From Hyaloraphidium curvatum SAG 235-1 (lineage: Eukaryota > Fungi > Monoblepharomycota): 64,000 nucleotides of DNA. The stretch covers positions 186,001 to 250,000 of the forward strand of contig JAIVFI010000010.1 of NCBI GenBank assembly GCA_025558095.1, given 5' to 3'. Numbering within the stretch: position 1 is the stretch's first letter; the number at the start of each line of letters is the position of its first letter. Position numbers and translations under genes: made by a program. The notes under the pieces were generated by a model. That model ran no database searches. It was given only the letters and a program-made list of their open reading frames with translations, and was not told the origin of the DNA. Of this stretch, positions 24,420 to 58,447 are shown piece by piece.

Positions 24420-27400
24420 ATGCGGCTGCTCGCGCTGGCGGTGTTGGCCCTCGCGGCGGGCGCGGCCGCGGACGATGGCGGCGCGGCCGCGGACGATGGC
24501 GGCGCGGCGCACGACTACGACCCCGACGCCTTCCACGCCCGCATGCGCACGGCCAGCGGCTTTGCCAACCACGTCGTGTACGCCCCGCACGGCTCGCACG
24601 GCGTGTGGGCGCACGGCGACTCGCTCGTCGTCGAAGGCGGCGGTGTGGGCGGGGAGGAGGAGGGCGGAGAGGGCGGGGAGGCGGAGGCCGCTTCCGGGGG
24701 GGATCGCCATGGCGGGGAGGCCAGGCTCGGCAGGCGGGACCGCGTGCTGGACGACATCGAGCCGGCGCTACTGCCGCGCCGCGTGATCCGCCGGGTGGCC
24801 GGGTGCCCCGCAGCCGCATCGTTCTCGCTGTCGCCCGACAGGCTCGACGCCGGTGGGTCCGCCTCCCCTCGCGCCCCGGCTTTCCGCTGACCCGCTCCTG
24901 CCCACTCCTGCCCACTCCTGCCAGGTGCCCCTTTCGACCTGCGCATCGCCAACATGGAGGCCGTCGGCATCGACTTTGGCGACGGCGTGCCGCAGTTCTT
25001 TGCCTTTTGGAACGCGTCCGTCGTCGAGATCAACGGGCAAGCCACGACGACCCTGACCACCGTCGGCGACCAGCCCGTCACGACCTCGGGCGCCGGATTC
25101 GACGGGTGCTTCCCAACACTTTCGGTCCCGCTCGCGGTCACCGCCACGCTGACCCAGCTCGGCGAATCGGCGACCATGACGCCCAACGTCGCCGGGAGGT
25201 GGGGCCATCCGCCACCAACCGCACCCTTCTGATCGCGCCGCATGCCAGGTACTTTGTCGACGCCACAGTCAGCCCCGGCCTGCACTCCACCCGCTTCCCC
25301 TTCCAAATCACCACCGTGGGTCCCCCGTGTTTTCCGCCCCCTTGAAGTCCTCTCACCCCCGCCTCCCCATCGCAGACACCCTACACCTTTGTCCCCCCCA
25401 CCGACTACGTCGCCCCCCCCGTGCAGACCCCCACCGCCACCGTCCCGCAGCCGCGGGACTGCGCCGACCCGCCCCGCATGGCCGGCGGCCTGCGGACCGA
25501 CTTCCCCATCTACACGGGCAACGTCGCCGGTGCGCCCGTGACGGTGACGCTGGACAACGTGCGGGAGAGCGTCGTGTCGTGGACCGAGGGGCAGAAGACC
25601 ACGACGTACGAGGCCGTCTACCGCGCGGGGGAGATGCGCACCTTTTCGACCTACACGACCGCGTCGGGCAAGACCACGGCGACCTCCACGAAGATGGTCA
25701 CGGTCGCCGGCGGCAGGATGGTCACCACCCGGCGGTACGCCACCACGGCGCTCGACAATTCCAGGGACGGCTGCATCGCGCGCCTCGTTGATGCGGCCAA
25801 CTGGGTCGTGCCGGCGGCGGGGGTCGCGGACGATGCGGTGATGCTGCTCGCGGGGAGGGTCGGGGACGACGAGGTGATGGGCGTGGGGCTGGTGGGTTGC
25901 CCGCCTTCCGATGGGCTTCAGGCACGGGCTGACACGAGTCGTTGCGGCAGATGGCGGGGGCGATGACCACCCCCGTGTTCCCCTACCCGACCGACGTGCC
26001 CCTGCCCACCCGGCCGACCTCGATCCCCGCCACCTCCTGCTCCCCGTTCTACGCCTACGTCACGCCCACCTCGGTGACCCCCGGCCAGGTGGTGACCCTG
26101 CAGCTCTTCAACGTCCCCGCGACCCCCGTCCGCCTCCTCGCCTCGGGCTACTCGACCGTCTACGAGGCCCGCTACGCCGCCACCGTGCTCTCCAACTTCC
26201 TCGCCGTCTCGGCCGTGCCCACCCGCACGTGGACCGCCACCGTGCGCACCCCCGGGTGCGTCAACATCTCCACCAGCGTGACGGTGGCAGCGCAGACGAG
26301 GTTCCTGCCGCTGACGGCGGCGCCGAGCCCCACGGCCGTGTACCAGGTCCGCGCGAGGGCGAGGGACTTTGGGCGGCCGGGGGGGGGCGAGGTGGAGTCG
26401 GTGCAGACCTTCTACGTGGGGTCGCTTCTCGCACTCCCAAGCGCACGCGAAGCTGACGCATGCACGCCGATGGCAGCTCAACCGCGGTCCCAACACACCG
26501 GAATCCGTGCTCGCCCGGTCCTACCCTTGCCTCGTCGGCCCGCTGCGCACGCGCACGGCGATCCGGTACAGCAACGCGACGTGGGCGGCGCGGTTCTACA
26601 GCCTTGCAAGGAACACGAGCCGCGGGGTCACGACGACGCGGCTGACGTGGACGCTGGGGACCAACGGGAGGGGGAGGATGAGCTTCATCGCGAGGGACTA
26701 CGCCGCGCCGAGGACCAGGCTGGGTGGGTGCGCCGTGCGGCGTGCGGATGCGGAGGACGGAGCTGACCGCGTTCCGTCCGGGCAGACATGTACGAGACCA
26801 ACGCCTTCCGCCTGCCCCGCCCGGCGGACTGGTCCGTCGAGTGGACCGCCACGGGCGCCTTCACGGGCCGCACCATGCCGCCCTTCACCGTGACTACGGA
26901 CTACATCGTGGGCTTTGCTGCGACCGCACCCGCACGCACCAATGCGCTGACCTTCCGCCGCCGCCGCCCGCGCAGGCCGACGGCCTCCTCTTCCCCAACG
27001 GCACCGCTGTCCCCTCCTCCCGCGCCGACCTCCGCATACGCCACAGCGTCACCGTGCACCCGTACTGGCCGCGCACGCCCAAGGGTTCCCGCCCGACGGT
27101 GGCGTTCAACGTCACCGCGCCCACGTACGGGAGCATGGACAACGTCACCATGCTCTGCGCGCACCCGGGGGCGAAAAGGGCCGCGTTCGTCGTCGTGCCG
27201 ATGGGCGCGCTGAAGGAGCGGCCGGGGGAGGCGGACCTCGCGGCCGCGGTGTCGAGCGCAAGGTGGACGTTCGTGACCGACAGGGCGGGGCGGTGGGTGC
27301 CGCGCGCCCGCGCGGCGATCTACCCGCGGTCGCTGGGGCCGCTGTCGGAGATCGCGGCGAGGTGGGCGTCGGATGGGGACGGCGGCGGGATGCGGACGGG

Positions 27401-27482
27401 GGGGGAGAACCCGAACGCGCCGAAGGGGAGCCCGCCGGCGGCGGAGCTGGAGAGGCAGCTGGCGGCGTTCAGGCAGGTGTGA
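24420..27482 (+). CDS. Large secreted Thr/Pro-rich protein of unknown function, multi-exon
   Basis: Signal peptide MRLLALAVLALAAGAAA. Successive coding blocks joined by short GT-AG introns. Ends ...ERQLAAFRQV*. Confidence 0.6.
24459..24506 (+). repeat. 21-bp coding tandem duplication (GAAADDG x2)
   Basis: GGCGCGGCCGCGGACGATGGC occurs twice directly after the signal peptide. Confidence 0.8.
24891..24920 (+). repeat. 10-bp intronic tandem repeat (CCCRCTCCTG)x3
   Basis: cccgctcctg cccactcctg cccactcctg, located between the branch point and the acceptor. Confidence 0.8.
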
Positions 27483-27630: not shown

Positions 27631-29063
27631 ATGTCCGCCGACGGCGAGTCGTTCTCCACGCCGCCGCCGTCGCCCGACCCGGACGGCGGCTCCGCGGTGC
27701 CCCCGGTCGCGGCGGCCGCCACGGCCGCGCCCCCGAAAAGGGCCGGCTTCTACCACTGCGCCGTCTGCCTGCACGACATCCTGCCGTGGCGCGGCCCGAC
27801 CTTCCTCAAGGACGCCTCGGGACGGCCCGCGTGCACGCACATCTTCTGCGCCAAATGCGTCGAGCGCGCCGGCGGCAGTTGTCCCGTCTGCCGGCAGGCG
27901 TTCAAGGAGGCGTCGGAGCTGGCCGAGTTCCCGCTGCTGTGGAAGCTGTACCGCGAGGCGGCCGTGGACTGCCCTTCGGGGTGCGGGGCGCGCTGCGAGG
28001 CGCAGGATCTGCTCGCGCACTGCGAGGCGTGCGAAAAAAGGACGGTCTGCGGCAAGTGCGAGGCGGTCGTGCTGCCGCCAGAGACGCTCGAGGTCGGCGA
28101 GATTGGATCGAATGCGGCTCGGTCGAATGCTGACGTGGACGGCAGGACCACCTCGAGGCCCACTGCCCGGAGACCGAGACCCAGTGCAAGTCCGACCGTT
28201 GCCATTTCAAGTGTGCCCGCAGGCAGATGGAAGATCACTCCAAGGACTGCCCGCGGAGGATCGTGGGATGCACCTACCCCTTTTGCGGGCACACGGTCAG
28301 TGATCGCCTTTCGCATCGGACCGCAATCGCTCACGGTCGCTTTTGCAAACAGGGTCCTTTCGAGGAGCAGGAGAGCCACGTCCAAGGAGGCACCCAGCAG
28401 CACCTCGTGCTTGCCCTCAACCAGCTGTCTGTCGTCGAGAAAAAGCTAGGAGGTATCCGATCCCCTTCTACGGTTGCAGATCAGCCGCCCTGACCCCACC
28501 TTTCAGACTCGAGCAAAAGCGTGGAGACGCTCAACTCCATGCTCCAGGCCACGATCACGAGGCGCGCCCGGATCCTCGTGAAGAAGTCGGACAAGGCCCC
28601 GGCGTACCCGGCGCTCAGCACGGCGACCAAGTGGGACGATCTGCCGCCCGTCAACTCTTCCCGGGTCTTCGAAGCATTCGGCTTGACCTTCAAGATGTGC
28701 ATCAACACTACCAGCTCCCCCGGGGAAGTGGGCCTTTTCTTGCACTTCGTACCCAAAGAGGTCAAGTGGGCCGTCGTCAAGTGGAGGGCATGGATTCAGG
28801 GAAACGTCGAGCATTCCGTCGGACCCTGCAGGGTCCTGCTCACGACGAAGCAGGGCTGGGGCTTCCCAAAAGCGATAAAGAAAGAGATGATGACGACGGA
28901 GACCGGGGTTCTGAAGCAGCTACGGGGAGGGGACTATCTTGAAGTCCGCGTCGAGCTCTACGTGCGCGACTCGGGAAGCAACGAGGAAGTCGAGGAGGGC
29001 GGAGAGGAACGAGTCGGACGGAGCCTCGACAACGAACCTCCTTGGCCCGAGGCACCTTTCTGA
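27631..29063 (+). CDS. TRAF-like E3 ubiquitin ligase: RING, TRAF-type zinc fingers, coiled coil, MATH domain; 4 exons
   Basis: RING CAVC...CTHIFCAKC...CPVC. Zinc fingers CPSGC..HCEAC, CGKC..HLEAHC, CKSDRC..HSKDC, CTYPFC..H. MATH motifs FEAFGLTFKMCI, VGLFLHF, GWGFPKAI, DYLEVRVEL. Exons 27631-28092, 28146-28295, 28353-28452 and 28507-29063 keep frame. Confidence 0.82.
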
Positions 29064-29113: not shown

Positions 29114-30751
29114 CTACTTTGACCATCCCTTCGTCCAGTCCCCTCGGTTGGCCTTCTTCCACTTGCTCTGGTTCTCCCGTTCGGCGTCCTTCAGCAGTTG
29201 GTCGACGTCCAGCCCCTTCGGCTTCTCGCCGGCGAACGGGTTGCCAGGTCTCGCCGCCGTCGGAAATGGATTCGAGGCCTGCGACGCCTGTTGGCTCCCC
29301 GGCGGCGACGTCCTCTTGGCGGACGACGTGACCGTCGCCAACCGCGCGTGCACCTCGAACCTGCCAGTGTGGTCCTTCATCCCATGCGCCGGTTTGGCCT
29401 CCGGCTTCGGCACGGGCCTCGCCGCTGCCTGGTGCACGCCGAACCCGCGCGAGCGCACCTGCACTTCCTCCACGACCGGCACCTCCTTCCTGGCGATCCG
29501 CCAGAAGCACAGCGTCCGGCCCGATTTCTCGCGCCAGACCGGGGCATCTTCGTCCCTAAAGGTCCGTTCGAAGGGATCCTCGGCGCCTTCGGCTTCCCGC
29601 CTAACCGTGCGGACCGTGTTACGCGTGCCGGCCACCCACACCTGCTCGACGACGGGCCGCGGACCCGGCTTCTCGTCCTCGACGTAGCGCCTGTTCTCCC
29701 AGCGTCCCTTGAACGGCGCGGTGGAGGCTCCGCCGAGGACGTAAGATCGCAGGTCTTCGTCGTGCTCTTCTGCGGCCAGGGAGGCTCCTTGGATTGCGAA
29801 GGTGAGGTCGATGTCGGTCGTCGGGTCCACCAGCGCCGCGCCGAGGAACTTGCGCACCATGGCCTCGCCCTTTTCCTTCGGGTCGCCTCGGGTCGGGTTC
29901 CACCAGGACCTCGTCTGCCGCTGCGGGTCGGATTCGGGAAAGATGGAGTGCGCGGGGTCCAGGACGAGCCAGCCGGACTCGAAGTTCTTGAGCAGCGGTT
30001 TGATGCCGTCCCCGTACGAAACGTAGGTCCGGGAGAGGTCAATGGCAAGCAGGGCAGGAAACCGTCTGATCAGCGGGATCGAGTGGTCCGTGATTCCGGT
30101 GCCAGAGAGGTTCAGATACTGCAGCTTCGAAAGGCCTCGCGGACCGTCCGAGAAGTCGTCCAAGTCCTCCTCCTCGAGCTCCGAAAAGGGCCGCTTGCCT
30201 GCCGCGGCAGACGTGGCCCTCGCCAAGGTCCCGAATCCGAGGTCGGAAACTTCGACGTTGCCGGCCAGGTCGAGGAGCTCGAGCTTTACCAGCTGGCAGA
30301 GCATGGGCATATCCGCGTCCTTGAGGTTCGCGTTCCTCAGTTCCAGCCTTTTCAGGTGGACCAGGCCGGAGACGCGTCGTACACGCAGTGCAATCTGCGC
30401 GTCTTCGCGGGAGAAAGACGCGCCGGAATGGAGAGCAGTGCCGGTCGAAGACACGGGCATGTCGCGGACCGCCAGGGAAAAGAAGCTCCTCGGCAGCCTC
30501 GCGCCGTAGTGGCGCTCAAAGGCCGCGGCAGCCCTCGAAGACCACGCAAAAAGGCGTCTCTGCCGCGCCTCGGCGAAAAGCAGCGCACCGCATGTGTCCC
30601 AGGGCAGCACGTCGAAGCACTCGTACGGGAAGGTGTCGTCGAGGTACGGCGCGAGCGAGGCGCACGTGAGAGCCCGGAGCGACGGGATTCGCCTTTGTGA
30701 CGCGTGGGAATGCTCTTCTGCGCCATCTGACGAGAGATTGAAGGGCTCCAT
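29114..30751 (-). CDS. Leucine-rich-repeat (RNI-like) protein, intronless
   Basis: Repeats LKRLELRNANLKD, LELLDLAGNVEVSD, LQYLNLSGTGITD, LLAIDLSRTYVS. N-terminal PSLRALTCASL. Confidence 0.8.
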   Translation of the reverse strand: MEPFNLSSDGAEEHSHASQRRIPSLRALTCASLAPYLDDTFPYECFDVLPWDTCGALLFAEARQRRLFAWSSRAAAAFERHYGARLPRSFFSLAVRDMPVSSTGTALHSGASFSREDAQIALRVRRVSGLVHLKRLELRNANLKDADMPMLCQLVKLELLDLAGNVEVSDLGFGTLARATSAAAGKRPFSELEEEDLDDFSDGPRGLSKLQYLNLSGTGITDHSIPLIRRFPALLAIDLSRTYVSYGDGIKPLLKNFESGWLVLDPAHSIFPESDPQRQTRSWWNPTRGDPKEKGEAMVRKFLGAALVDPTTDIDLTFAIQGASLAAEEHDEDLRSYVLGGASTAPFKGRWENRRYVEDEKPGPRPVVEQVWVAGTRNTVRTVRREAEGAEDPFERTFRDEDAPVWREKSGRTLCFWRIARKEVPVVEEVQVRSRGFGVHQAAARPVPKPEAKPAHGMKDHTGRFEVHARLATVTSSAKRTSPPGSQQASQASNPFPTAARPGNPFAGEKPKGLDVDQLLKDAERENQSKWKKANRGDWTKGWSK

Positions 30752-30819
30752 CGAAAGTGGCCCGTGAAATTCCGGAGGTTGCGAGGTGATGAATCGAATT
30801 CGCGGCCACCAAGAGTGCG

Positions 30820-32608
30820 ATGGAGCCCGATGTCCTGAAGAAATGCAAAGCATGCTCGCCTTCGGAGCTTTGCTCGGAATGTACGAGGGCTCTGGAGGTC
30901 CTTGGAAGGCAATGCAAGCCCCCGCGACGCCACTCTTCCAGCACCGAAAAGCTGGTCGCCTTCGCCGAGGAGATCCTCAACGCCAGAGAGCCTCCTAAAA
31001 ACGACGTCGCCTGTGCTCTTGAAAGCTTGCGCCGGGCCTCGGCTGCTGGTTTTATTGCCGCCTGCGTGTACCGCGCCAAGGTGTCCTTTGCCGAGAGACT
31101 CGGGGACCAGATCAACAAGGACTCTGTGGTGGTGGATCTCTTCGCCGTGGTGGACAGAGCACTAGAGCTTGGGGTGGCCTCCCCCGGCCCGTTGTTGCAG
31201 AATTTGGCTCTCGCGGAGGAGGCGGTCTTCTACTCGTACTACGTTTTCAAGGAAACGCCAATTGGCGAGGCCATCGGCCGACCTTTCATTCCGCAGCGAT
31301 TGGATGCGCTAGAGAGAATCATTTCCGTTGCGATGAAGTACGCCCAGGTTCCCGAGCCCCGTTCCGCAAGGGTGGCGAAGGAAGCTCGCATCACGAAGGA
31401 AGCTCGCATCATCATCTCCAGGGCGGTCAGCACCGTGTACGAGATCACGCGCTTCATCGTCAGCAATCCTGGATCTCCTCTCGAGACGAAGTACACGGCG
31501 CAGTGGATCTTCGACGTGCTTCAGAGCGCGATCGACGCCGGATGCAACGATGAATCGATCAAGGGCGGCATGACGACCGCTGATGCGATGCTTCATCAGG
31601 GAGAGATGCTCCTAGAGTGAGTGGTTACCGACAAGAGCGCGGTTGCGGAATCGTAATGCGCGCTCCGCGCCAGAGGAATCGATGGCGCAGCTCCAGACCC
31701 TCGGAGGGCTGCGAAGACACTCCACCGCGCTGCTGAGCTCGCAGGCTTGCTTCCTCCTTTCATGCGGATACCGGACTGGGAACGGGGTGCCGTTGGACAA
31801 GATCAAAGCTGACTACTGGCTCGACCGCCACTTCGAGCTGATCGACGACGACGACCCCGAGTGTGGCCCGTACAAAGCTCTGCACCAAGTTGGCTACTTT
31901 GGATCCACGTCGGAGACCGACACAGTCCGCATGAGTATGCTGAGCGCCATCGCTTCTGCTTGTTCGATCGGGGAGGATGATGCGAAGGCCATTCTGGCCG
32001 GTAGCGATCCGCAGAAGCTCGACCGCGCTGCCATTTTCGGCGTCCTCAACTGGCTCATTGCCAGTGGCCAAGCGGATGGTGCCCTGCTCCTTGCTAGGCG
32101 GATCTCGAGGGCTTCGTGCGTGGACGACGGGGTCGCGGTCATCGAGGCCATCATGGCGAAAGTGACCCTCAAGAAGAACCGTACGATGCCGCCCGAGGTG
32201 GCGATCCCGGACGAGCCCGACCTTTTGCTCCTGCGCTGGATCCTCTGCGACTCGGAATCCGCAGAGCCCGCCGCCGATGTCATGTCCCGCGCATCGCACG
32301 TTTCGGAACGCTTCCGTCGGCTTGCGTCGAATCTCAGCCTTCTCGGTGGCCACGGAACGCCCGTCAGCACTCCGGCACCAGGCGAGGGGAAACGGGAGCA
32401 GCTGGCCAAGCTGGCGTGCCTGGGTTGCGGGAAGGTATCCGACAAGAAGAGGTTCCAGCGGTGCAAGGCGTGCGGATCGGCGGCGGTGGTCTACTGCGGG
32501 CCTGCCTGCCAGAGGAAGGACTGGAAGGGACCCGAGGGCGTGCATGGGGTGACGACGGGCTGGCGGGCCGGCAAGAGCGAGTGCGCCAGGATCGGCGAGA
32601 TGAAGTGA
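30820..32608 (+). CDS. Helical protein with a Sel1-like repeat and C-terminal MYND zinc finger, 2 exons
   Basis: ACFLLSCGYRTGNGVPLDKIKADYW (Sel1-like) and CLGC...CKAC...YCGPACQRKDW...H...C (MYND). Intron about 31617-31673. Confidence 0.78.
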
Positions 32609-34689: not shown

Positions 34690-36814
34690 ATGTCCCGAAT
34701 CGACGATGCCGCGGAAATGTCCGCGGCGGGACCGTTCGACCCGGTCGCAAGCCTACGCCGCCGGCCGTTGCCTGCCGCCCCCACCGTGGCAACGCTGCAC
34801 CGGGCCCGCAAAGAGACTCTGGCCCGCGCGGGCGACACGATATCTCGCACGGCAACCCTCAAGGACTCGCTGGCGGGCGGTCTCGCCATGACCGTCGCTC
34901 GTGCCGGCGTGGCGACCACGGAGCCGACCGCAGCTTCGTTGGGCGAGCCTGCTGTCCCGCCCGGCCCGCTGCCGACCGAGGAGCAGATGAAAACGCTGTC
35001 AATCGTCGCAGACACGCTGCCTGTGTCCGCTTGGCTGGTGGTTTCGGCCGAATTCGCCGAGCGATTCGCGTACTACGGAGTCAGCGCTCCGTTCCAGGCA
35101 GGCAGCTCCCAGTCCTGCTGTTGGAAATGTCTTGATCAATCTGGGCCTTCTGACAGAACTACATCTCCATTCCCTACCCGACAAATTCAGACGGCCAGCG
35201 CGGTGGCCTGGGCCTGGGTCAAGCCACTGCCACAGCCGTCACTGCCGGGTTCCAATTCCTCTGCTATATTACCCCGGTCTTTGGCGCCATTGTCTCGGAT
35301 TCCTGGGGCCTCGGCAAGCTCCGAACTATCCTCCTTTTCTGCGGCGTCTACGTGCTCGGCCTCGCCGTGCTGGTGGGCACCTCGGTGCCTGCGCTGCTGG
35401 CCACCTCGACCGCGGCGTCCCTTACCGGACTCATCATCGCCATGGTCGTGCTCGGCATGGCCACAGGTGGCATCAAGCCCAGCGTGTCGCCCTTTGTGGC
35501 CGATCAGTACCCGTACAGGGTCCCTTTCGTAAGGACAAAGAAGAATGGGCAGAAAGAGGTCGTCGATCCAGGCCTGACAATCCAGGTGTGCTGTCGAGCT
35601 GCATGCATCCGCCGCTCCGTTTCCTCACCTTGCAAGCTTCATGCCGGCAGAGGGTCTTCAGCTACTTTTGCCTCGCGCTCAACGTAGCCTGCCTGACCGG
35701 CGTCTTTGCCGCAACTTACGCCGAGATGTACGTGGGCTTCTATCTCGCGTACCTGCTCCCCTCGCTCGTTTTCCTTTTCGTCATTGCCGTGCTTCTCCTC
35801 GGGTGGAAATCAGGAACCATCAAAGCGGATCGCCCCCATCTCGGCTCATCCGTCCTCGTGGATGCGTGGAAGGTAATCCGCGAGGTGTACGGCAAGTTCA
35901 AGGGGGATTGGGAGACTTGTGCTTCCGCAGTGAGGGAGAAGATGATGGATCCTGCGGGACCTCCTTCGGGCACAAGCCTCTTGACAGCTGCGGACCCCGA
36001 CAAGCCGACCAACATCGACGACCGCTTCGTCAGGGACCTGTACCGAGCCCTCGGCGCGTGCAAGGTCTTTGTCTTCTTCCCCTTCTTCTGGGTGGTCTAC
36101 GCCCAGATTACCAGCAACCTCATTTCGCAGGCCGGGAGCATGGAGACCAACGGGGTGCCCAACGACGTCATCATGAACCTGGATCCCCTGTTCATGATCG
36201 CCGGCATCCCGTTGTTCGACCGGGTCGTTTACCCGTCGCTGATGAAGATGCACATCAGGTTGCGGCTCGTGTTCCGCATCTCGCTCGGCTTCTTCTTTTC
36301 TGCTGCAGCGATGGCGTGGAGCGCCTGGGTTCAACAAGCGATCTACAACGCCGAGGATGCCGGAGCGCCGGGTTCGATCAGCGTTTGGCTGCAGGTACCC
36401 GCGTATTTCTTTATTGCGTGCTCGGAGATCTTTGCGTCCATCACGGGCCTGGAGCTGGCCTACTCGCGTGCTCCCGAGACCATGAAGACGGTCGTCATGG
36501 CGTTGTTTCTCCTCACATCAGCATTCGGATCGGCGATCCAGTTCGCCCTGGTTCCGATCAGTCAGGATCCTTACCTCGTTTGGATGTACGGTGGGCTGGC
36601 CGTCGCCAGCGCGGCCGCGGGGGCGCTGCTGTACGGATTCTTCCGTTACCTGGATCTGGAGGACGCGGAGAAGGAGCGACGGGAACTGGAAACCGCGGAG
36701 GCAAAGCAAAGGGTCGCGAGGATGCCAGGAGGGTTGGCATCGGAAGGCAACGATCGGAAGGCCGAGACGGCATCGTCCATCGCCGTCGTCGCGGTCAAAG
36801 ATGTGCCGGAGTGA
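34690..36814 (+). CDS. PTR2: POT/PTR2-family peptide transporter, copy B (close paralog of 10428-12543), 3 exons
   Basis: Nearly colinear with copy A from MSRIDDAAE to DVPE*, with the same two intron positions. Confidence 0.9.
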
Positions 36815-39480: not shown

Positions 39481-41229
39481 TCAGCGCGCCGGGCACACCA
39501 CGGGCCCCGTCGGCGCAAACGGATCCGTCCGCTCCGTCCTGCCGAACCCGGGGATATCGTACTCCCAATACAGGGTGTAGATGGTATCCCGCCCCCCCCT
39601 CGGGGCGATCGTGTAGGCGTCGTTGGTGTAGGCCACGCCCGAGGCGAGCCAGGGGAAGGACATGTGGTAGTCGAAGATGCGCAGGGACGAGGCGACGTCG
39701 TCGCCGGGGGAGCCGTAGGTGGAGCACCATTTGATCATGCCCTGGGGGTGGGGAGGGTCAGCGACGAGGGCAAGATGCGCGGAATAAAGGGCTCACGTCG
39801 GGGACCCGGGTCCAGTCCGTGGGGACTCCGGTCTGGGCTTCGCCCACGTTGGTCAGCTCGCAGACAAAGACGTCGTTGCCGCCGTAGATTTCCATCGAGT
39901 AGTACTTGCGCAGGCCGCCGTTAGGCACGTTTTTGGGCACGTCGGGCGAGTCGCCCTCGGCCCAGTAGCTCGTCCACAGGCCGCGGCCTGAGGGGTACAC
40001 GCCGGCGATGAAGATCCGCTGGTGGTACACGACGATGTCGCTCATGGTCTCGGTGCCGGGGCCGCCGTACTGGCGGTTCCAGAGGATCCGGCCGTCGGCG
40101 GCGTTGAGCTGCGAGATGAAGATGTCGCCGCCGCCGCGCGAGTAGTCGCCGGCCACGGCGCCGTAGGTGGTCCCGCCGACGTAGACCGTGTCCGAGTAGG
40201 TGTCGACGGCAATCCCGGCGGGCACGTCGCGCGCGCGCGACCCCACGAGGCGCGACCACATGATGTTGCCGTTGCTGTCAAGTTTGGAGGCAAAGACGTC
40301 GCCGCCACCGAGAGGGACGTTTCCCCCGAGCCAGCTCGTCGTCGAACCTGTGACGTAGATGTTGCCGTGGCCTGGCGACCGGAAGTCAGCGAGGCTCGGC
40401 GGCAACGGGCCTGACCGACGACCCACCGTCAAAGGCGATCCCGCTGGCGCCGCGCCCCGGCATCGACTCGCTGCCGGCGAGCCCGATGTGGGAGCACCAC
40501 TTCAAGAAGCCTCCGGGAAAGGCGCGGCAGACGACAACGTCCCAGTCTGTTCGCGACGCGGGCTTCTTGCGGCAGCCCGTGAGCGAGACCGAGGCGGTGG
40601 TCTGCCCGCCAAAGAACAGGTCGCCGTCGCGGCCGAAGGCGATGGTGTTGAGGCGCAGCGTCCTCCCGGCAGGGTCCGGGTTGCCGATGAAGATCTGGCG
40701 GACGAGAGCGCCGAATTGCTGCCGGACGGGAAGGGACGGTAAGGGGTGGGCTGCTGGGCAGGAACTCGGCAGGACCCACGCTAACGACGGCGATCCAGTG
40801 CTGGCCGTCGCTGCGGCCCAGGATGTACAGCTGGTTCGCCGCGGGCAGCCAGGCGATGGCCAGGCCCTCGTCTGCCGACGGCGTGCCGACCGAGAACTGG
40901 CGCACCAGGCGGCCGTTGCGCGGCGAGTTGAGGATGGCGACCTTGAGGTCGACGCCGCCGCAGCCGGAGCGGGCGCCGCGGCGGGCGCGCAGGCCGCGGC
41001 ACGGCGCCACGCCGATGGCCGACGAGTGCAGCACGGCGGCGAGGCCGCTCGTCGGGTGGATGTCGTGGCCGACGAGGACGTCGTCGGCGGCGGTGCCGAT
41101 GCCGGCCGTGTAGCCCGGCACGTACGCGGCGGCGGGGAGCGCCAGCAGCGCGGCCAGCGCGGCCAGCGCGAGCACGGCGAGGGTGGCGGGGAGCGGCAAA
41201 AGGCGGCGCACCGCGGCCGCGGGGGCCAT
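39481..41229 (-). CDS. Secreted SBBP-type beta-propeller repeat protein, multi-exon
   Basis: Signal peptide, then repeats GNIYVTGSTTS...GGGDVFASKLDSNGNIMWSRLVGS and TVYVGGTTYG...GGGDIFISQLNAADGRILWNRQYGG. Ends ...VVCPAR*. Confidence 0.78.
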
Positions 41230-53959: not shown

Positions 53960-56900
53960 CTACCGCGACGTGATGGGTTTGCGCTTGATGTGCGGATGCC
54001 CCCTAGAGACAAATGTCAGCCCATCGCGTGCATGATGAAGGGCGGGGAGATCACGCACTCGTCGTCCTTTTCGATTCGGAAGAAGTGGTCGGCGTGGTTA
54101 CTCGCCCCCAGGGCGCGCATGAAGTCCTCGTCGTGCGTGATGACGATGAGCTGGAAGTTGGCCTGCTTCTTGCGGTCCTCGACAATGTCGCTCAGGCTCT
54201 GCGCCAGGCTCATCATGTTCTCGTGATCGAGGTTGGTTGTGGGCTCGTCCAGCGCCAGGATGCCCGAGTTGATGCAGAAGGTCTCGGCGAGCGCGAGCCG
54301 GATGATGAGCGACGTGAGGACCTTCTGGCCCGCGCTGCAGCGTCCGCGCATGTCGAGCTCGGTAGTGTCCTTGACCATGACGACGCGGTAGTTGTAGGAA
54401 CGGTTGCCCTTGGCGGACTCGGCGTCCGCGCGGATCTCGATGGTCTGGATGTCGTTGCCCTTGTACGTCTTTTGCCACAGCTCCTTGATGATCTTGTTGA
54501 TCTCGTCCATCTTCATGGAATGGTATTTCATGATGGCCCTGCAACGTGGCGAGGGTGAGGCGATGCAAGGGATGACATGCAAGGACTACTCACGCGTCCA
54601 GGGCCTTGGCGTACTTCTCAAGGTCGATGTGCGCCATCTCCTTTGTCTTGAGGGCAATCAGATGCTCGGACCACTGCTTCTCGATGTTCTTGTAGCTCGT
54701 CGAGAGCTGCTTGTTGAGCTGCCGTTCCTGCTCCTCGAGCTGCTTGAGCCCGCCCATGATGTGCGCCCGCTCTTCAACCAGCGCTTCGTGCTTCTTCTTG
54801 AGCTTGGAAAACTGCTCGGCCAAGGTGCTCTTGTCCAACCTCTCGCGTTCCTTCTTGAGCTGCTCGTACTCGCGGGACGTCGACACCAAGTCCTTCTGCA
54901 GTTTACGCAACCGCAGGTTGTCTTCAACGTTCCGGCGCTCCACGGCCTGCTCGGACGCGCGCTTGTCCAACCGCGTCGCTTCCTCCGCCACGTGCTGCAG
55001 CTTGAGCTGAACCTGTGCGACATCGGCTTCGTTGCGCTTCAGATCGCTGTCGAGCCGAACGAGCTTCTCCGCGATTCCCTCGTTGATGAACCTGAGTTCG
55101 GTTAAGAAAGTCAAGAAACATCTGGCGTTTGTCCCGACAGAACCCGCCTCTCGATTTCTCGGTCGTACGTCTCCATGCGATTGAACGAATCCTTGAGCTT
55201 CGATGCTTCCTTGGACGCTTCTTGCTCCAGCTGATTGGTCCTCGAACGCAGCTGACCAAGCTCGTTCTCGAGATCAAGCTTCCCCGGCTCCAGGTCCTCA
55301 ATCTTCTCTTCCAGACTCCGAATGGAGCCTTCGCGGCTCGAGGTGTCCTCCTGCAGCGCGTAAACCTCCTTCTGCTGGCGTTCGTGTTCCGCTCGCTGGT
55401 TGCGAAGAGCCTGCAATCGGTCGGTGGCATCGCGGACAAGCTCGGACTTGTGCTGGATGTCCTGCTGCTTGACCCGCGCGTTCTGGTTCGTTTCCTTGAT
55501 TTGGTTTCGCAGGCGATCGCTGGAAGTGAAAGTCAGACGGAAACATCAGCCGGTACCACTCGCGGACTGACCAGGCATTTTGGACCTCGCTCTGTTTCTC
55601 CCGGAGCTCCTCCATGGTCGCAGCAGAACCCGACGACGCGAGCTCCGCGTTGAGCTTCACGACGTCCTCCTCAAGGACCCTCAGCTCCTTGATCAAGCGG
55701 CCGACGTCCTCCGTCCTCCGCTTGAGATTCTGCGCCTGTTCTTCCTCGGCCTTCAGCTTGGCCATCTTCGACTGCCGCTCCTCGACCAGCGCGACGGCGT
55801 CGTTCTTCCGCTTCTCGTTGATGTTAAGCTCCTGGCGGGTGCGAGGGATCTCCTCGTCTCGTAACTTGATGGCCTCCTCTTTGGTGGCTATCAGCTCTCG
55901 CATCTTGAGAAGCAGGGGCTCCCTCTCCTTGAGGTTCTGCTCCTGTTCCACTTTTGCCACGGGGAAACTGTCCCTTGTTTTCTGCACCAGCTTGAGGATC
56001 GTCTCCTCTTCCTGATCGTCGCGGAACTTGCGGCTGCAAGTGAAACAAGTGTGCGACTTCACCATCCGGTTGAGGAACTTGTCGTAAAGCTTGACCATGC
56101 TGTCGAAGGAAGCGATGCCTCTGCCGCAAAGGACAGTGTCAGAGCAGGCCACAGTTTCAACAACGGCAACCCAACTCCTTGAGCTCGAGAACTTCCTTCT
56201 CCTGGTCCGCGAGAGCTTGGTCGAAGTGGTCGATGTCCCGATCGTCGAGTACGTGCTTCAGAATCTGGCTCTTCTTCGCGAACTCGGCCTCTGCCTTTCC
56301 CAGCTGCGACTTCGACATGGTCATCTTGGTCTCCCACTGCGAGAGGTCTCGGTTCGATTCTTCGAGCAGAGTCGCCGCCGTCCGCAGCTCCGCCTGCTTG
56401 GCGCGAATGACCCCCATAACGTCGCTTTCGAGCGACCCGCCGGAGGACTTGCGAGAAAACTGCGCTTCGAAATCGCGGACGCAACCGTCCTGCTGTTGCT
56501 TCAACGAGTCGGATTTCCGCTGCTTCTCAAGCGTCTTCAAGCTCAGCCGGGCCTTTGTTTCGGCCAGCGAGTTTGCAAGGGTTATTTCCTCGTTGACGGT
56601 CTTGAGCTCGTGCTCTTTGGCTGCCAACTGGTTCCCGAGCTCGCGGAGGGTCCTGTCGACGTCCATCTTTCTCATCTGCTCCTGCGCGTTCTCCAGCTCC
56701 AGCTTGTGGGTGTTTAGCAGGGACTCCTGCTCGGCAAAGTCGGCGTTGTCGAGCGTGCTTGCCGCCAGCTGCCTCTTCAAGTGGTCAATCTTGGCTTTGT
56801 TCGCCGCCTTCGGAAAAGTCAATTAAGAGACCGTCCAACAACGCAGCCCGTATAGCACAACGACTCACGATTTGTCTCTTTTCCCCATCGCGCTCGCTCT

Positions 56901-58447
56901 CGAATGTGGTGATCTTCTTCTGGAGCTCCTGCATTTTCTGCTGCACCACTTCCTCGTCCTTGCGACCTTTGGTCCGGATCTGCTGGACCCTGTTCTCCGC
57001 TTCCCGTAGGCTGGCCTTGAGCTTATCGGAAAACTCGGCAACGTCGGACTCGGAGAGCGGGAAGTGATCGAAGCCGCGGAAGCCGTGCTGAGCAGACAAG
57101 CTCGTCACCAAGGCGGCGCGATCGGCGATCTTCTGCGCTTGAGCATCCGATTCGGCCTGCATCTTGCCCTTCTTTGTGAGCATCCTGGTCGCCGCAGTCT
57201 GGAGATCGGCGAGCTTCCGCTCCTCCGTCCTTTTTGATTCATCCAGTTGCGCCTTGACGCCGTCGAGATTCGCGTCCTGCTCCTTGTAAGTTTCCAGGAC
57301 CCGCGTAAGCTCCTCGTCCGAATCTGCGTAAAGCGATTCAAGGATGCTTGAGCCATCGGCCTTCAATGGAAGAAAAACGGCACCAACCTCCTAGCTCTTC
57401 GATGCGTTCAGAGATCTCCGTCACCTGCTTCTCGATACTCTGCTTCTCCACAAGCTTCATGTTGATGCGGACGTCCAGGCCCCCGATGTTGGTGAGGGTG
57501 TCGCCAGTGCTCTTGAGCTGCTCCATGACCGTCGCAATCTCCCCACCGTCCATTTCGGTGATGCGTTCCTTGGCGCGCGCAACCTTGTCTTCGACGTCCG
57601 ATAAGGTCGTCTTTACGTTCTCGAAGCGCTCCTTGTCCAACTTCAGGAACTCGAGCTTCTGCGTGTCCAGCTTGAGCTCCTGCGCCTGCTCCTTGCGGAG
57701 GTCCTTGATGGACTGCAAAGCCTTGGTGTACTTTGTGGCAGCGAAGATCTCATCGAACTTCTTCTTCAGAATGGCGGGCTCGGAAAGGGGCCTGGCAGAG
57801 CGCATGAGCAGAGATCGTCGGCTCGCAGCTTCCAAACGAACCAGTTCGATTCCTCCTGGTGGACGAAAATGACGTTCTCCAGGATCGCGCGGCTGACGCC
57901 CAAGTGCTGGGGAATGTCCGTGTCCAAATCGAGGCATCGGTTCGAGGTGCTGATCTTCTCCATGTCCGAGTTCCTGGCCACGAGCGCCGACTCTAGCGTC
58001 TTGAACGTGACAGAAGCCTTCTTCTGGGTGAGCTGGAGTGAACGCGTCGCGACCATCTCCTGGCCCGTCACAGATCGGAACTTGAGCTTGATCTGCGCCC
58101 TGACCTCGGTTTCACCGGCGACCTGAGGCACTTAGAGCGTCAGGAACGATCGCACAGGGCATCGGTTCGGCCGGCCAACCTTGGGGTCATTGATAAAGGC
58201 TCCTCCCCTACTGTTCGGAGGCAGATCTCCAGTTGTGATGTACTTCAGGCACTCGATAATGGTCTGAAGCGACGTGAACCTTCGTGAGCCGGGTCGGCCG
58301 CTGGGGCCCGCCCGCGCGCCGTACCGTCTTTCCGCTTCCATTGTGCCCGACGATGAGGGTCAGAGGCGTGTAGAACGCTACGACTTCCTCGTTGTGCGGG
58401 TCGAAGGAGCGCACTCCGCGAATGAGGAGCTTCTCGATGGAAGACAT
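53960..58447 (-). CDS. RAD50: DNA repair protein Rad50 (MRN complex), multi-exon
   Basis: [18 protein letters not shown], zinc hook [33 protein letters not shown], long coiled coils. Confidence 0.96.

What the first reader, a model, noticed from the sequence alone, without database searches (positions are those of the whole stretch)
27631..29063. Complete TRAF architecture (RING, zinc fingers, coiled coil, MATH) in an apparent fungus
Seen in sequence: four exons splice in frame to give a C3HC4 RING, about four TRAF-type zinc fingers, a short heptad segment (LALNQLSVVEKKL...VETLNSML) and a C-terminal MATH domain. The ORF track hides this by splitting it into pieces. Established: this domain order defines TRAF signalling E3 ligases of animals and Dictyostelium, and it is not part of the yeast/filamentous-fungal toolkit. 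Inference: this is an ancestral receptor-coupled ubiquitin-signalling adaptor retained in an early-diverging fungus, with unknown receptor and pathway.
Basis: partly seen in the sequence, partly recalled or inferred. Interest (0 to 1): 0.78.

Follow-up and report, generated by a model that had tools for sequence, protein, structure and literature searches.

The report
Expanded TRAF-like ligase family in fungus
A four-exon gene of an early-branching freshwater fungus encodes a protein with the parts, in the same order, of the TRAF signalling proteins of animals and amoebae (the last part identified from a predicted fold); it is one of at least 16 related genes in this species and likely tags partner proteins with ubiquitin, a design I found no report of in fungi.

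Summary
Four exons splice in frame to 422 aa, identical to an NCBI model of Hyaloraphidium curvatum. A transcript contig skips intron 2; introns 1 and 3 are not bridged. RING plus four zinc fingers match TRAF6 best (family profile, E 5e-15). A 33-residue helix follows. The last exon is predicted to fold as MATH (Z 11.8 to SPOP, 11.4 to USP7, 9.6 to TRAF6).

The gene belongs to a lineage expansion: 15 of the top 20 non-self hits are from the same species. Its MATH lacks the W-P-F motif of TRAF-type MATH (0 of 9 versus 17 of 18). A C-terminal W-x-x-x-P-F-like tail is in 8 of 16 paralogs and 0 of 140 other proteins.

So it is TRAF-like, nearest the amoebozoan type, and likely a RING ubiquitin ligase. 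Ancestral retention, receptor coupling, trimers and K63 chains are untested. No paper search found fungal TRAFs, but other fungi were not surveyed. Earlier scan notes show only RING plus TRAF-finger modules on other tails elsewhere.

The parts
27631..28092 (+). Exon 1 (aa 1-154): low-complexity N-terminus, RING, linker helix, zinc finger 1, first half of finger 2
   Evidence: matches P0001 aa 1-154 at 100%
27757..27891 (+). C3HC4 RING (aa 43-87); V45 and L47 at the E2-binding positions, P85, and R88 right after the last Cys
   Evidence: aligns with TRAF6 I72/L74
27970..28032 (+). Zinc finger 1 (aa 114-134); K105 in the preceding helix sits at the TRAF6 linker-Arg position
28048..28166 (+). Zinc finger 2 (aa 140-161), split by intron 1
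28093..28145 (+). Intron 1, 53 nt, GT..CAG, phase 0; the same position appears to be used in unnamed relatives
   Evidence: 10 of 13 matched unnamed fragments have Val (GTN) at the next residue; not bridged by RNA
28146..28295 (+). Exon 2 (aa 155-204): end of finger 2, finger 3 (28185-28250), start of finger 4
   Evidence: transcript contig covers 28191-28294
28296..28352 (+). Intron 2, 57 nt, in frame and stop-free
   Evidence: skipped in a contig of run X1
28353..28452 (+). Exon 3: end of the C-C-H-H finger 4 (to 28403) and first half of the coiled-coil helix
28453..28506 (+). Intron 3, 54 nt, GT..CAG, phase 1
   Evidence: retention gives a stop at aa 251; not bridged by RNA
28507..29063 (+). 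Exon 4: end of the helix (to 28544), MATH domain, acidic linker, conserved tail, stop codon
   Evidence: transcript contig covers 28530-29070
28545..28973 (+). Divergent MATH domain (aa 251-393) with a GWGF strand motif at aa 354-357 and no W-P-F motif
   Evidence: predicted fold matches; hhalign; motif counts
29043..29060 (+). Conserved C-terminal tail motif W-x-[D/E]-x-P-F (aa 417-422)
   Evidence: 8 of 16 named paralogs, 0 of 140 other proteins; W417 and P421 invariant in 5 of 5 subfamily members

Best explanation
This intron-containing fungal gene encodes a RING, four TRAF-type zinc fingers, a predicted coiled coil and a predicted MATH domain, and the protein likely works as a TRAF-like ubiquitin ligase that would cluster through the coil, catch a target peptide on the MATH domain and tag the target with ubiquitin. 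Shown: the gene structure, the RING and finger motifs, and at least 16 paralogs in the species. Predicted: the helix and the MATH fold. Inferred, in steps: (1) the RING binds an E2~ubiquitin, because the E2-face residues and the basic residue after the last Cys are kept; (2) RING pairs use the linker helix and finger 1 to hold ubiquitin, as in TRAF6; (3) the coil oligomerises; (4) each paralog's MATH picks different targets. I think the family most likely serves cell-autonomous surveillance, tagging damaged membranes or invader proteins as Dictyostelium TrafE does, rather than relaying a TNF-type receptor. About 0.85 that it is an active RING ligase or ligase partner; about 0.4 for the surveillance role.
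For: The family profile's three best PDB sequence hits are TRAF6 RING+fingers, E 5e-15 to 1e-14. Foldseek ranks TRAF6 N-terminal structures 1-2 and SPOP MATH next. V45 and L47 align with TRAF6 I72/L74, which a double mutant shows are needed for Ubc13 binding (PMC5702613). Arg follows the last RING Cys in 7 of 13 paralogs with a RING (its role as 'linchpin' is recalled). The linker-Arg column is Arg in 9 of 15 rows of A2 and Lys in P0001. The nearest Atlas cluster is Dictyostelid DG17-type with zf-TRAF and MATH_2, score 0.96. D. discoideum has more than 40 TRAF-like genes (PMC5758549, passages), and TrafE marks damaged compartments and needs its RING and TRAF-N (PMC10181826, passages). Paralog MATH regions average 21% identity against 30% for the RING without Cys/His pairs.
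Against: No activity, partner, localisation or oligomer evidence. All Pfam scores for P0001 lie under the curated cut-offs. The extra divergence of MATH is modest: the zinc fingers are at 24% once Cys/His pairs are removed. P0001 has Lys, not Arg, at the linker position, and six of 13 paralogs lack the Arg after the last Cys. Phagocytosis has not been described in chytrids (PMC6899921, passages), so TrafE's pathogen-vacuole setting does not carry over directly. Several paralog models are truncated and may be pseudogenes or wrong models.
Confidence: 0.65

Rival explanations
1. Origin A: the full RING-fingers-coil-MATH protein was inherited from the common ancestor of amoebae, fungi and animals, lost in most fungi, and expanded here.
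For: The whole order is kept, including the C-C-H-H last finger leading straight into the coil (13 of 16 paralogs). The nearest Atlas clusters are Dictyostelid, cnidarian and sponge TRAF-like proteins. The MATH profile still matches TRAF-type MATH (E 7e-6). Ubiquitination families were lost during fungal evolution (bioRxiv 10.1101/2022.11.15.516418, one passage).
Against: No other named fungus among the 30 of 149 hits looked up (15 H. curvatum, 15 without an organism name). The MATH lacks W-P-F and fits SPOP/USP7 better. The MATH tree is unresolved.
Confidence: 0.45
2. Origin B: the architecture was assembled independently, when a mobile RING-fingers-coil cassette picked up a general SPOP/USP7/TRIM37-type MATH domain in this lineage.
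For: The model matches SPOP and USP7 at Z 10-11.8 and TRAF-C at Z 9.2-9.6. W-P-F is in 0 of 9. The same cassette carries SPRY, H-lectin and ankyrin domains among my own hits. RING+MATH TRIM37-like genes occur in a few fungi, and convergent MATH gains are documented in TRIMs (PMC3503706, section 7).
Against: 7 of 8 weaker-scoring TRAF-like MATH domains from other organisms also lack W-P-F, so its absence does not need a new fusion. Shorter loops alone could favour SPOP/USP7 in a fold match.
Confidence: 0.35
3. Origin C: an old horizontal transfer from an amoeba-like protist or a giant virus, followed by intron gain and expansion.
For: Many giant-virus proteins named TRAF-like match the model over its length (E down to 5e-13). 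Giant viruses persistently infect zoosporic fungi (title of bioRxiv 10.1101/2024.01.04.574182).
Against: Identities to the listed viral proteins are only 7-22%. No relative was found in IMG/VR contigs by two pattern scans that find only close matches. Introns, GC3 and neighbours are native-like. That preprint does not mention this genus or TRAF.
Confidence: 0.2
4. Function rival: the protein is a plain degradative ligase, like SIAH or a self-contained SPOP-type ligase, that binds degrons on the cell's own proteins and builds K48 chains.
For: The MATH is nearest SPOP/USP7 and keeps the GWGF strand (that this strand binds substrate in SPOP/USP7 is recalled). SIAH1 and RNF125 RING-finger fragments match the N-terminal model at Z 7.7-8.4, above TRAF6 at 6.9. 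The RING has the canonical Arg after its last Cys, where TRAF6 has Asn.
Against: The sequence profile prefers TRAF6 by four orders of magnitude over the next RING. Four fingers plus a coil is the TRAF layout.
Confidence: 0.3
5. Function rival: a receptor-coupled adaptor that reads a membrane receptor tail and builds K63 chains for kinase signalling.
For: This is what animal TRAFs do (PMC6125299, passages); the linker-Arg position is mostly kept.
Against: No receptor is identified, none is encoded among the neighbours with a Pfam match, and the MATH is not the TRAF-C subtype.
Confidence: 0.2

Closest known systems
Dictyostelium TRAF-like proteins (DG17/ZfaA type, TrafE)
   Same: RING, TRAF-type fingers, coil and a general MATH; a lineage expansion (more than 40 genes, 16 with all domains; PMC5758549). 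Top Atlas cluster, score 0.96.
   Different: The host is a walled fungus; family-specific RING-loop motif and C-terminal tail; no direct sequence comparison with named Dictyostelium proteins was made.
Animal TRAF2/3/5/6, TRAF6 nearest
   Same: Domain order; best PDB sequence match for RING+fingers; E2-face residues and the linker basic residue line up.
   Different: The MATH lacks W-P-F and fits TRAF-C less well; longer first RING loop; Arg after the last RING Cys; a 29-residue extension after MATH; trimer and K63 activity untested.
SPOP and USP7/HAUSP MATH domains
   Same: Best fold matches for aa 250-393: Z 11.8 (rmsd 2.7, 127 aligned) and Z 11.4 (rmsd 3.1, 127 aligned).
   Different: No BTB or protease domain was detected; identity only 14-20%.
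TRIM37-like RING-B-box-coil-MATH ligases
   Same: RING, coil and MATH in one chain; reported in a few fungi (PMC3503706).
   Different: TRAF-type fingers here, and no B-box Pfam match.
SIAH/SINA ligases
   Same: RING, related fingers (weak Sina_ZnF hits in paralogs) and a TRAF-fold C-terminal domain (Z 7.6).
   Different: Four fingers and a 33-residue helix; the MATH match is much weaker than to SPOP/USP7.

Membership tests
TRAF (architecture sense) | N-terminal RING domain | tested here: met
   C3HC4 pattern at aa 43-87; model pLDDT above 90; Pfam under cut-off for P0001 but over it for several paralogs
TRAF (architecture sense) | Series of TRAF-type zinc fingers | tested here: met
   Four fingers; zf-TRAF E 4.2e-5; TRAF6 best PDB hit
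TRAF (architecture sense) | TRAF-N coiled coil before the MATH domain | tested here: met
   Predicted helix at 218-250; five hydrophobic a positions. Coiling with partners not shown
TRAF (architecture sense) | C-terminal MATH beta-sandwich | tested here: met
   The top seven rows of the wide fold search are all MATH-bearing chains; the model came from a 15-row family alignment with no Pfam-recognised MATH; hhalign E 7e-6
Animal TRAF1-6 | TRAF-C/meprin subtype of MATH (PF21355; W-P-F motif) | tested here: not met
   W-P-[FYLM] in 0 of 9 paralog domains against 17 of 18 strong TRAF-type domains; no PF21355 hit; Z lower than SPOP/USP7. Using the motif as a marker is my own choice
Animal TRAF1-6 | Mushroom-shaped trimer through coil and TRAF-C | not tested
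   The complex-prediction queue was full; no job ran
TRAF6-type ligase | RING-dimer residues and linker/finger-1 Arg that activate Ubc13~Ub | tested here: inconclusive
   Linker Arg in 9 of 15 rows, Lys in P0001; I72/L74 equivalents kept; the two alignments disagree by one residue at the dimer-face Phe; finger-1 Arg not checked
TRAF6-type ligase | K63 chain synthesis and binding of receptor-tail motifs | not testable with these tools
   Needs biochemistry
TRIM37-like | B-box after the RING | tested here: not met
   No B-box match up to E 10; the region holds TRAF-type fingers
SPOP / USP7 | MATH joined to BTB or a USP catalytic domain | tested here: not met
   All 422 aa are accounted for by other parts

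The most novel reading that the evidence does not exclude
An early-diverging fungus runs an expanded, amoeba-style TRAF surveillance system. Its members share a ligase half, carry diverged MATH sensors, and end in a built-in ligand mimic (W-x-[D/E]-x-P-F, like the TRAF6 motif P-x-E-x-x-aromatic with Trp for Pro) that plugs the MATH groove until a target displaces it, or links paralogs into chains. It would be a TRAF-type immune or damage pathway in fungi, with a self-locking switch.
Probability: 0.15. Interest if true: 0.8.

Novelty: new variant of a known kind. Interest (0 to 1): 0.5.

Why it matters
TRAF ligases are hubs of animal immunity and of damage sensing in amoebae. A 2012 survey found them only in animals (PMC3503706), and my ten searches found no fungal report. 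A native, transcribed, expanded family in a fungus either fills the gap between amoebae and animals, or shows the design arising twice. A MATH tree with named sequences could decide this, and the 422-aa protein can be assayed in vitro or in yeast. The interest is limited because the architecture is already known outside animals (amoebae, giant viruses) and no function is shown.

Tried and rejected
No whole genome is held, so paralogs could not be counted in the DNA; 16 is a floor from 50%-identity representatives. The single-sequence model of exon 4 was unusable (mean pLDDT 44). Exon 4 alone found nothing in PDB sequences. The three word-index searches returned only P0001, two paralogs and one unnamed protein. 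Locus scans found no relatives: metagenome contigs and viral contigs; the wide alignment was too diverged to scan with. The homotrimer prediction never ran because the queue was full, so there is no verdict. No run on record as RNA was listed; X1 does not cover exon 1 or bridge introns 1 and 3, which is no evidence either way. A mixed profile of 10-11 paralog C-terminal regions did not detect TRAF-type MATH (hmmsearch best E 0.018; hhalign E 0.05-0.06); only the five-member subfamily profile did. MATH identity of the second subfamily (P0003, P0010, P0016, P0019) is not shown (E 0.12 to TRAF-type MATH, 0.0073 to the first subfamily). The MATH tree (31 rows) is unresolved, with long branches meeting. 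The RING tree used 49 of 152 proteins, those my pattern matched; four family rows were left out. Rejected: contamination or recent transfer (native introns, GC3 and neighbours); TRIM37 or SPOP membership; a tandem copy inside the window (none). Paper searches with no fungal TRAF report in the listings. Most subscription journals and Zapata 2007 are outside the library, and bioRxiv supplements are closed; the gene-family tables of 10.1101/2022.11.15.516418 may bear on the novelty claim.

Full report
Gene structure. The region holds four exons: 27631-28092, 28146-28295, 28353-28452 and 28507-29063. The three introns (53, 57, 54 nt) run GT..CAG with a branch-like site 16-23 nt before the acceptor. 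Spliced, they give 422 aa; retaining intron 1 or 3 stops translation before the last domain. A search with exon 4 returned one protein, P0001, named as a hypothetical protein of Hyaloraphidium curvatum, identical to my spliced product. The species is in Monoblepharomycota; a review calls it poorly studied, with an unclear lifestyle (PMC6899921, passages).

RNA evidence. One run, X1, holds the region. It behaves as RNA: 10 of 13 joints over 14 kb read GT..AG, skipping 50-68 nt. One contig skips intron 2 exactly and another covers exon 4. Introns 1 and 3 are not bridged, so a single transcript rests on the reading frame, the NCBI model and the paralogs' shared architecture.

N-terminal half. A C3HC4 RING lies at aa 43-87, followed by three C-C-H-C fingers and a C-C-H-H finger at 196-221 that 13 of 16 paralogs share. 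Pfam scores for P0001 are below the curated cut-offs. A profile of 15 paralogs finds TRAF6 RING+fingers first among PDB sequences (E 5e-15; next non-TRAF RING 5e-11). In TRAF6, I72/L74 bind Ubc13 and a linker-helix Arg is needed for activity (PMC5702613, section 3 part 2 of 5 and passages). P0001 has V45 and L47 at the first two positions and K105 at the third; that column is Arg in 9 of 15 rows. Arg follows the last RING Cys in 7 of 13 paralogs, P0001 included.

Coil and MATH. AlphaFold2 with a 15-row family alignment (14 named paralogs and one unnamed relative) gave mean pLDDT 78, a helix at 218-250 and a beta domain at 253-394 with pLDDT about 58-83. Heptad a positions are hydrophobic five times running. 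Against 48,161 PDB representatives the top seven rows are USP7, SPOP, TRAF1, TRAF6 and TRAF3 chains matched over this domain. In the closer look SPOP scores Z 11.8 (rmsd 2.7, 127 aligned), USP7 11.4, and TRAF-C domains 9.2-9.6. Independently, a profile of five paralog domains matches 18 TRAF-type MATH domains at 84% probability, E 7e-6, against E 0.25 reversed. The W-P-F motif is in 17 of those 18, in 1 of 8 weaker TRAF-like MATH domains, and in 0 of 9 paralog domains. The domain is therefore MATH, but not the animal TRAF-C subtype. The Atlas agrees on the whole protein: its first hit is a Dictyostelid cluster with zf-TRAF and MATH_2, score 0.96. The domain alone scored 0.85 to TRAF/meprin MATH clusters, a lead only.

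A family, not a relic. HMMER over 1.84 billion representatives gave 180 hits at E up to 0.001 and listed 150. The window holds no second copy. A RING-loop motif marks 15 of 16 paralogs and 16 of 140 other proteins. Those others are mostly unnamed fragments whose match ends where intron 1 lies; 10 of the 13 that my pattern matched, of 17 tried, have Val next, as a GT donor read through would give. In a tree of RING+finger 1 (49 of 152 proteins) the 25 family rows form one side of a branch at 94/87, unstarred. So relatives with the same intron likely exist in other samples; their organisms are unknown. Several paralog models lack the RING or the C-terminal domain.

The tail. Mean pairwise identity among ten paralogs, without Cys/His pairs, is 30% in the RING, 24% in the fingers, 20% in the coil, 21% in MATH, 18% in the linker and 40% in the last eight residues. 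A terminal W-x(2-3)-[P/L]-[F/L] occurs in 8 of 16 paralogs and 0 of 140 others; six of the eight have Asp or Glu two places after the Trp. The TRAF6-binding motif is P-x-E-x-x-(acidic or aromatic), with small hydrophobic residues allowed for Pro (PMC6125299, passages). The tail fits this except for the Trp. Model confidence rises from 56 in the linker to 73 at 411-420, a hint that it packs somewhere; I could not see where. A self-locking ligand mimic is a hypothesis only.

Mechanism. The best reading is a TRAF-like RING ligase: the coil clusters subunits, MATH binds a target peptide, and the RING half transfers ubiquitin. The closest studied case is Dictyostelium TrafE, recruited to damaged compartments and needing both RING and TRAF-N (PMC10181826, passages), in a species with more than 40 TRAF-like genes (PMC5758549, passages). 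I favour surveillance (about 0.4) over routine degradation (0.3) and receptor relay (0.2). Against it: the MATH is only slightly more diverged than the fingers, and phagocytosis is not described in chytrids. No oligomer prediction could be run.

Origin. The gene is native-like: GC3 0.85, introns the size of its neighbours', and flanking eukaryotic genes such as a pyruvate/branched-chain dehydrogenase kinase, POT transporters and eIF3i. Retention, independent fusion and old transfer all remain open. The MATH tree is unresolved, and MATH trees are known to resolve poorly (PMC3503706, PMC4545420; passages). The same front cassette carries SPRY, H-lectin or ankyrin domains among my hits. Giant-virus proteins named TRAF-like match the model at low identity. 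From memory, not tested: filamentous fungi have RING plus TRAF-finger proteins without MATH.

Novelty. A 2012 paper states that all TRAFs then detected came from animals, while TRIM37-like RING-MATH genes occur in a few fungi (PMC3503706, passages and section 7). Ten searches listed no fungal TRAF report. Term look-ups in PMC8778642, PMC4986451, PMC8195603 and two preprints gave nothing on fungal TRAFs. The library is partial and I surveyed no other fungal proteome, so 'unreported' is provisional. Verdict: a real feature and a new variant of a known kind; interest 0.5.

Noticed in passing
window 29117-30976 (-): Single-exon LRR gene converging on the TRAF-like gene, 50 bp between stop codons; a transcript contig covers 29105-30764.
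   Followed up: partly
window 30833-32605 (+): Gene with an intron near 31617-31673 seen in RNA contigs and a C-terminal MYND finger.
   Followed up: partly
window 24900-27482 (+): Multi-exon Thr/Pro-rich gene directly upstream, six introns seen in RNA contigs, no Pfam match in the three frames scanned; ends 148 bp before the ATG.
   Followed up: no
window 35094-35154: Joint in the POT transporter gene read as CA..GA with three ambiguous letters; possibly a non-canonical intron.
   Followed up: no
window 39761-40501 (-): Frame with an SBBP beta-propeller repeat match, E 5.5e-8; origin not examined.
   Followed up: no
window 54019-58131 (-): Run of exons in a lower-GC stretch ending in an SMC/Rad50-type ATPase end.
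   Followed up: no
protein P0002: Closest paralog is modelled with a polysaccharide pyruvyl transferase domain in front; probably two genes joined by the annotation.
   Followed up: no
proteins P0004, P0010, P0019, P0116: P0004 ends in a Cys-rich segment in place of MATH; P0010, P0019 and P0116 have much longer predicted coil regions.
   Followed up: no
viral fold library: Hyperionvirus, Harvfovirus, Faunusvirus, Edafosvirus and Sylvanvirus entries include many TRAF-like proteins.
   Followed up: partly
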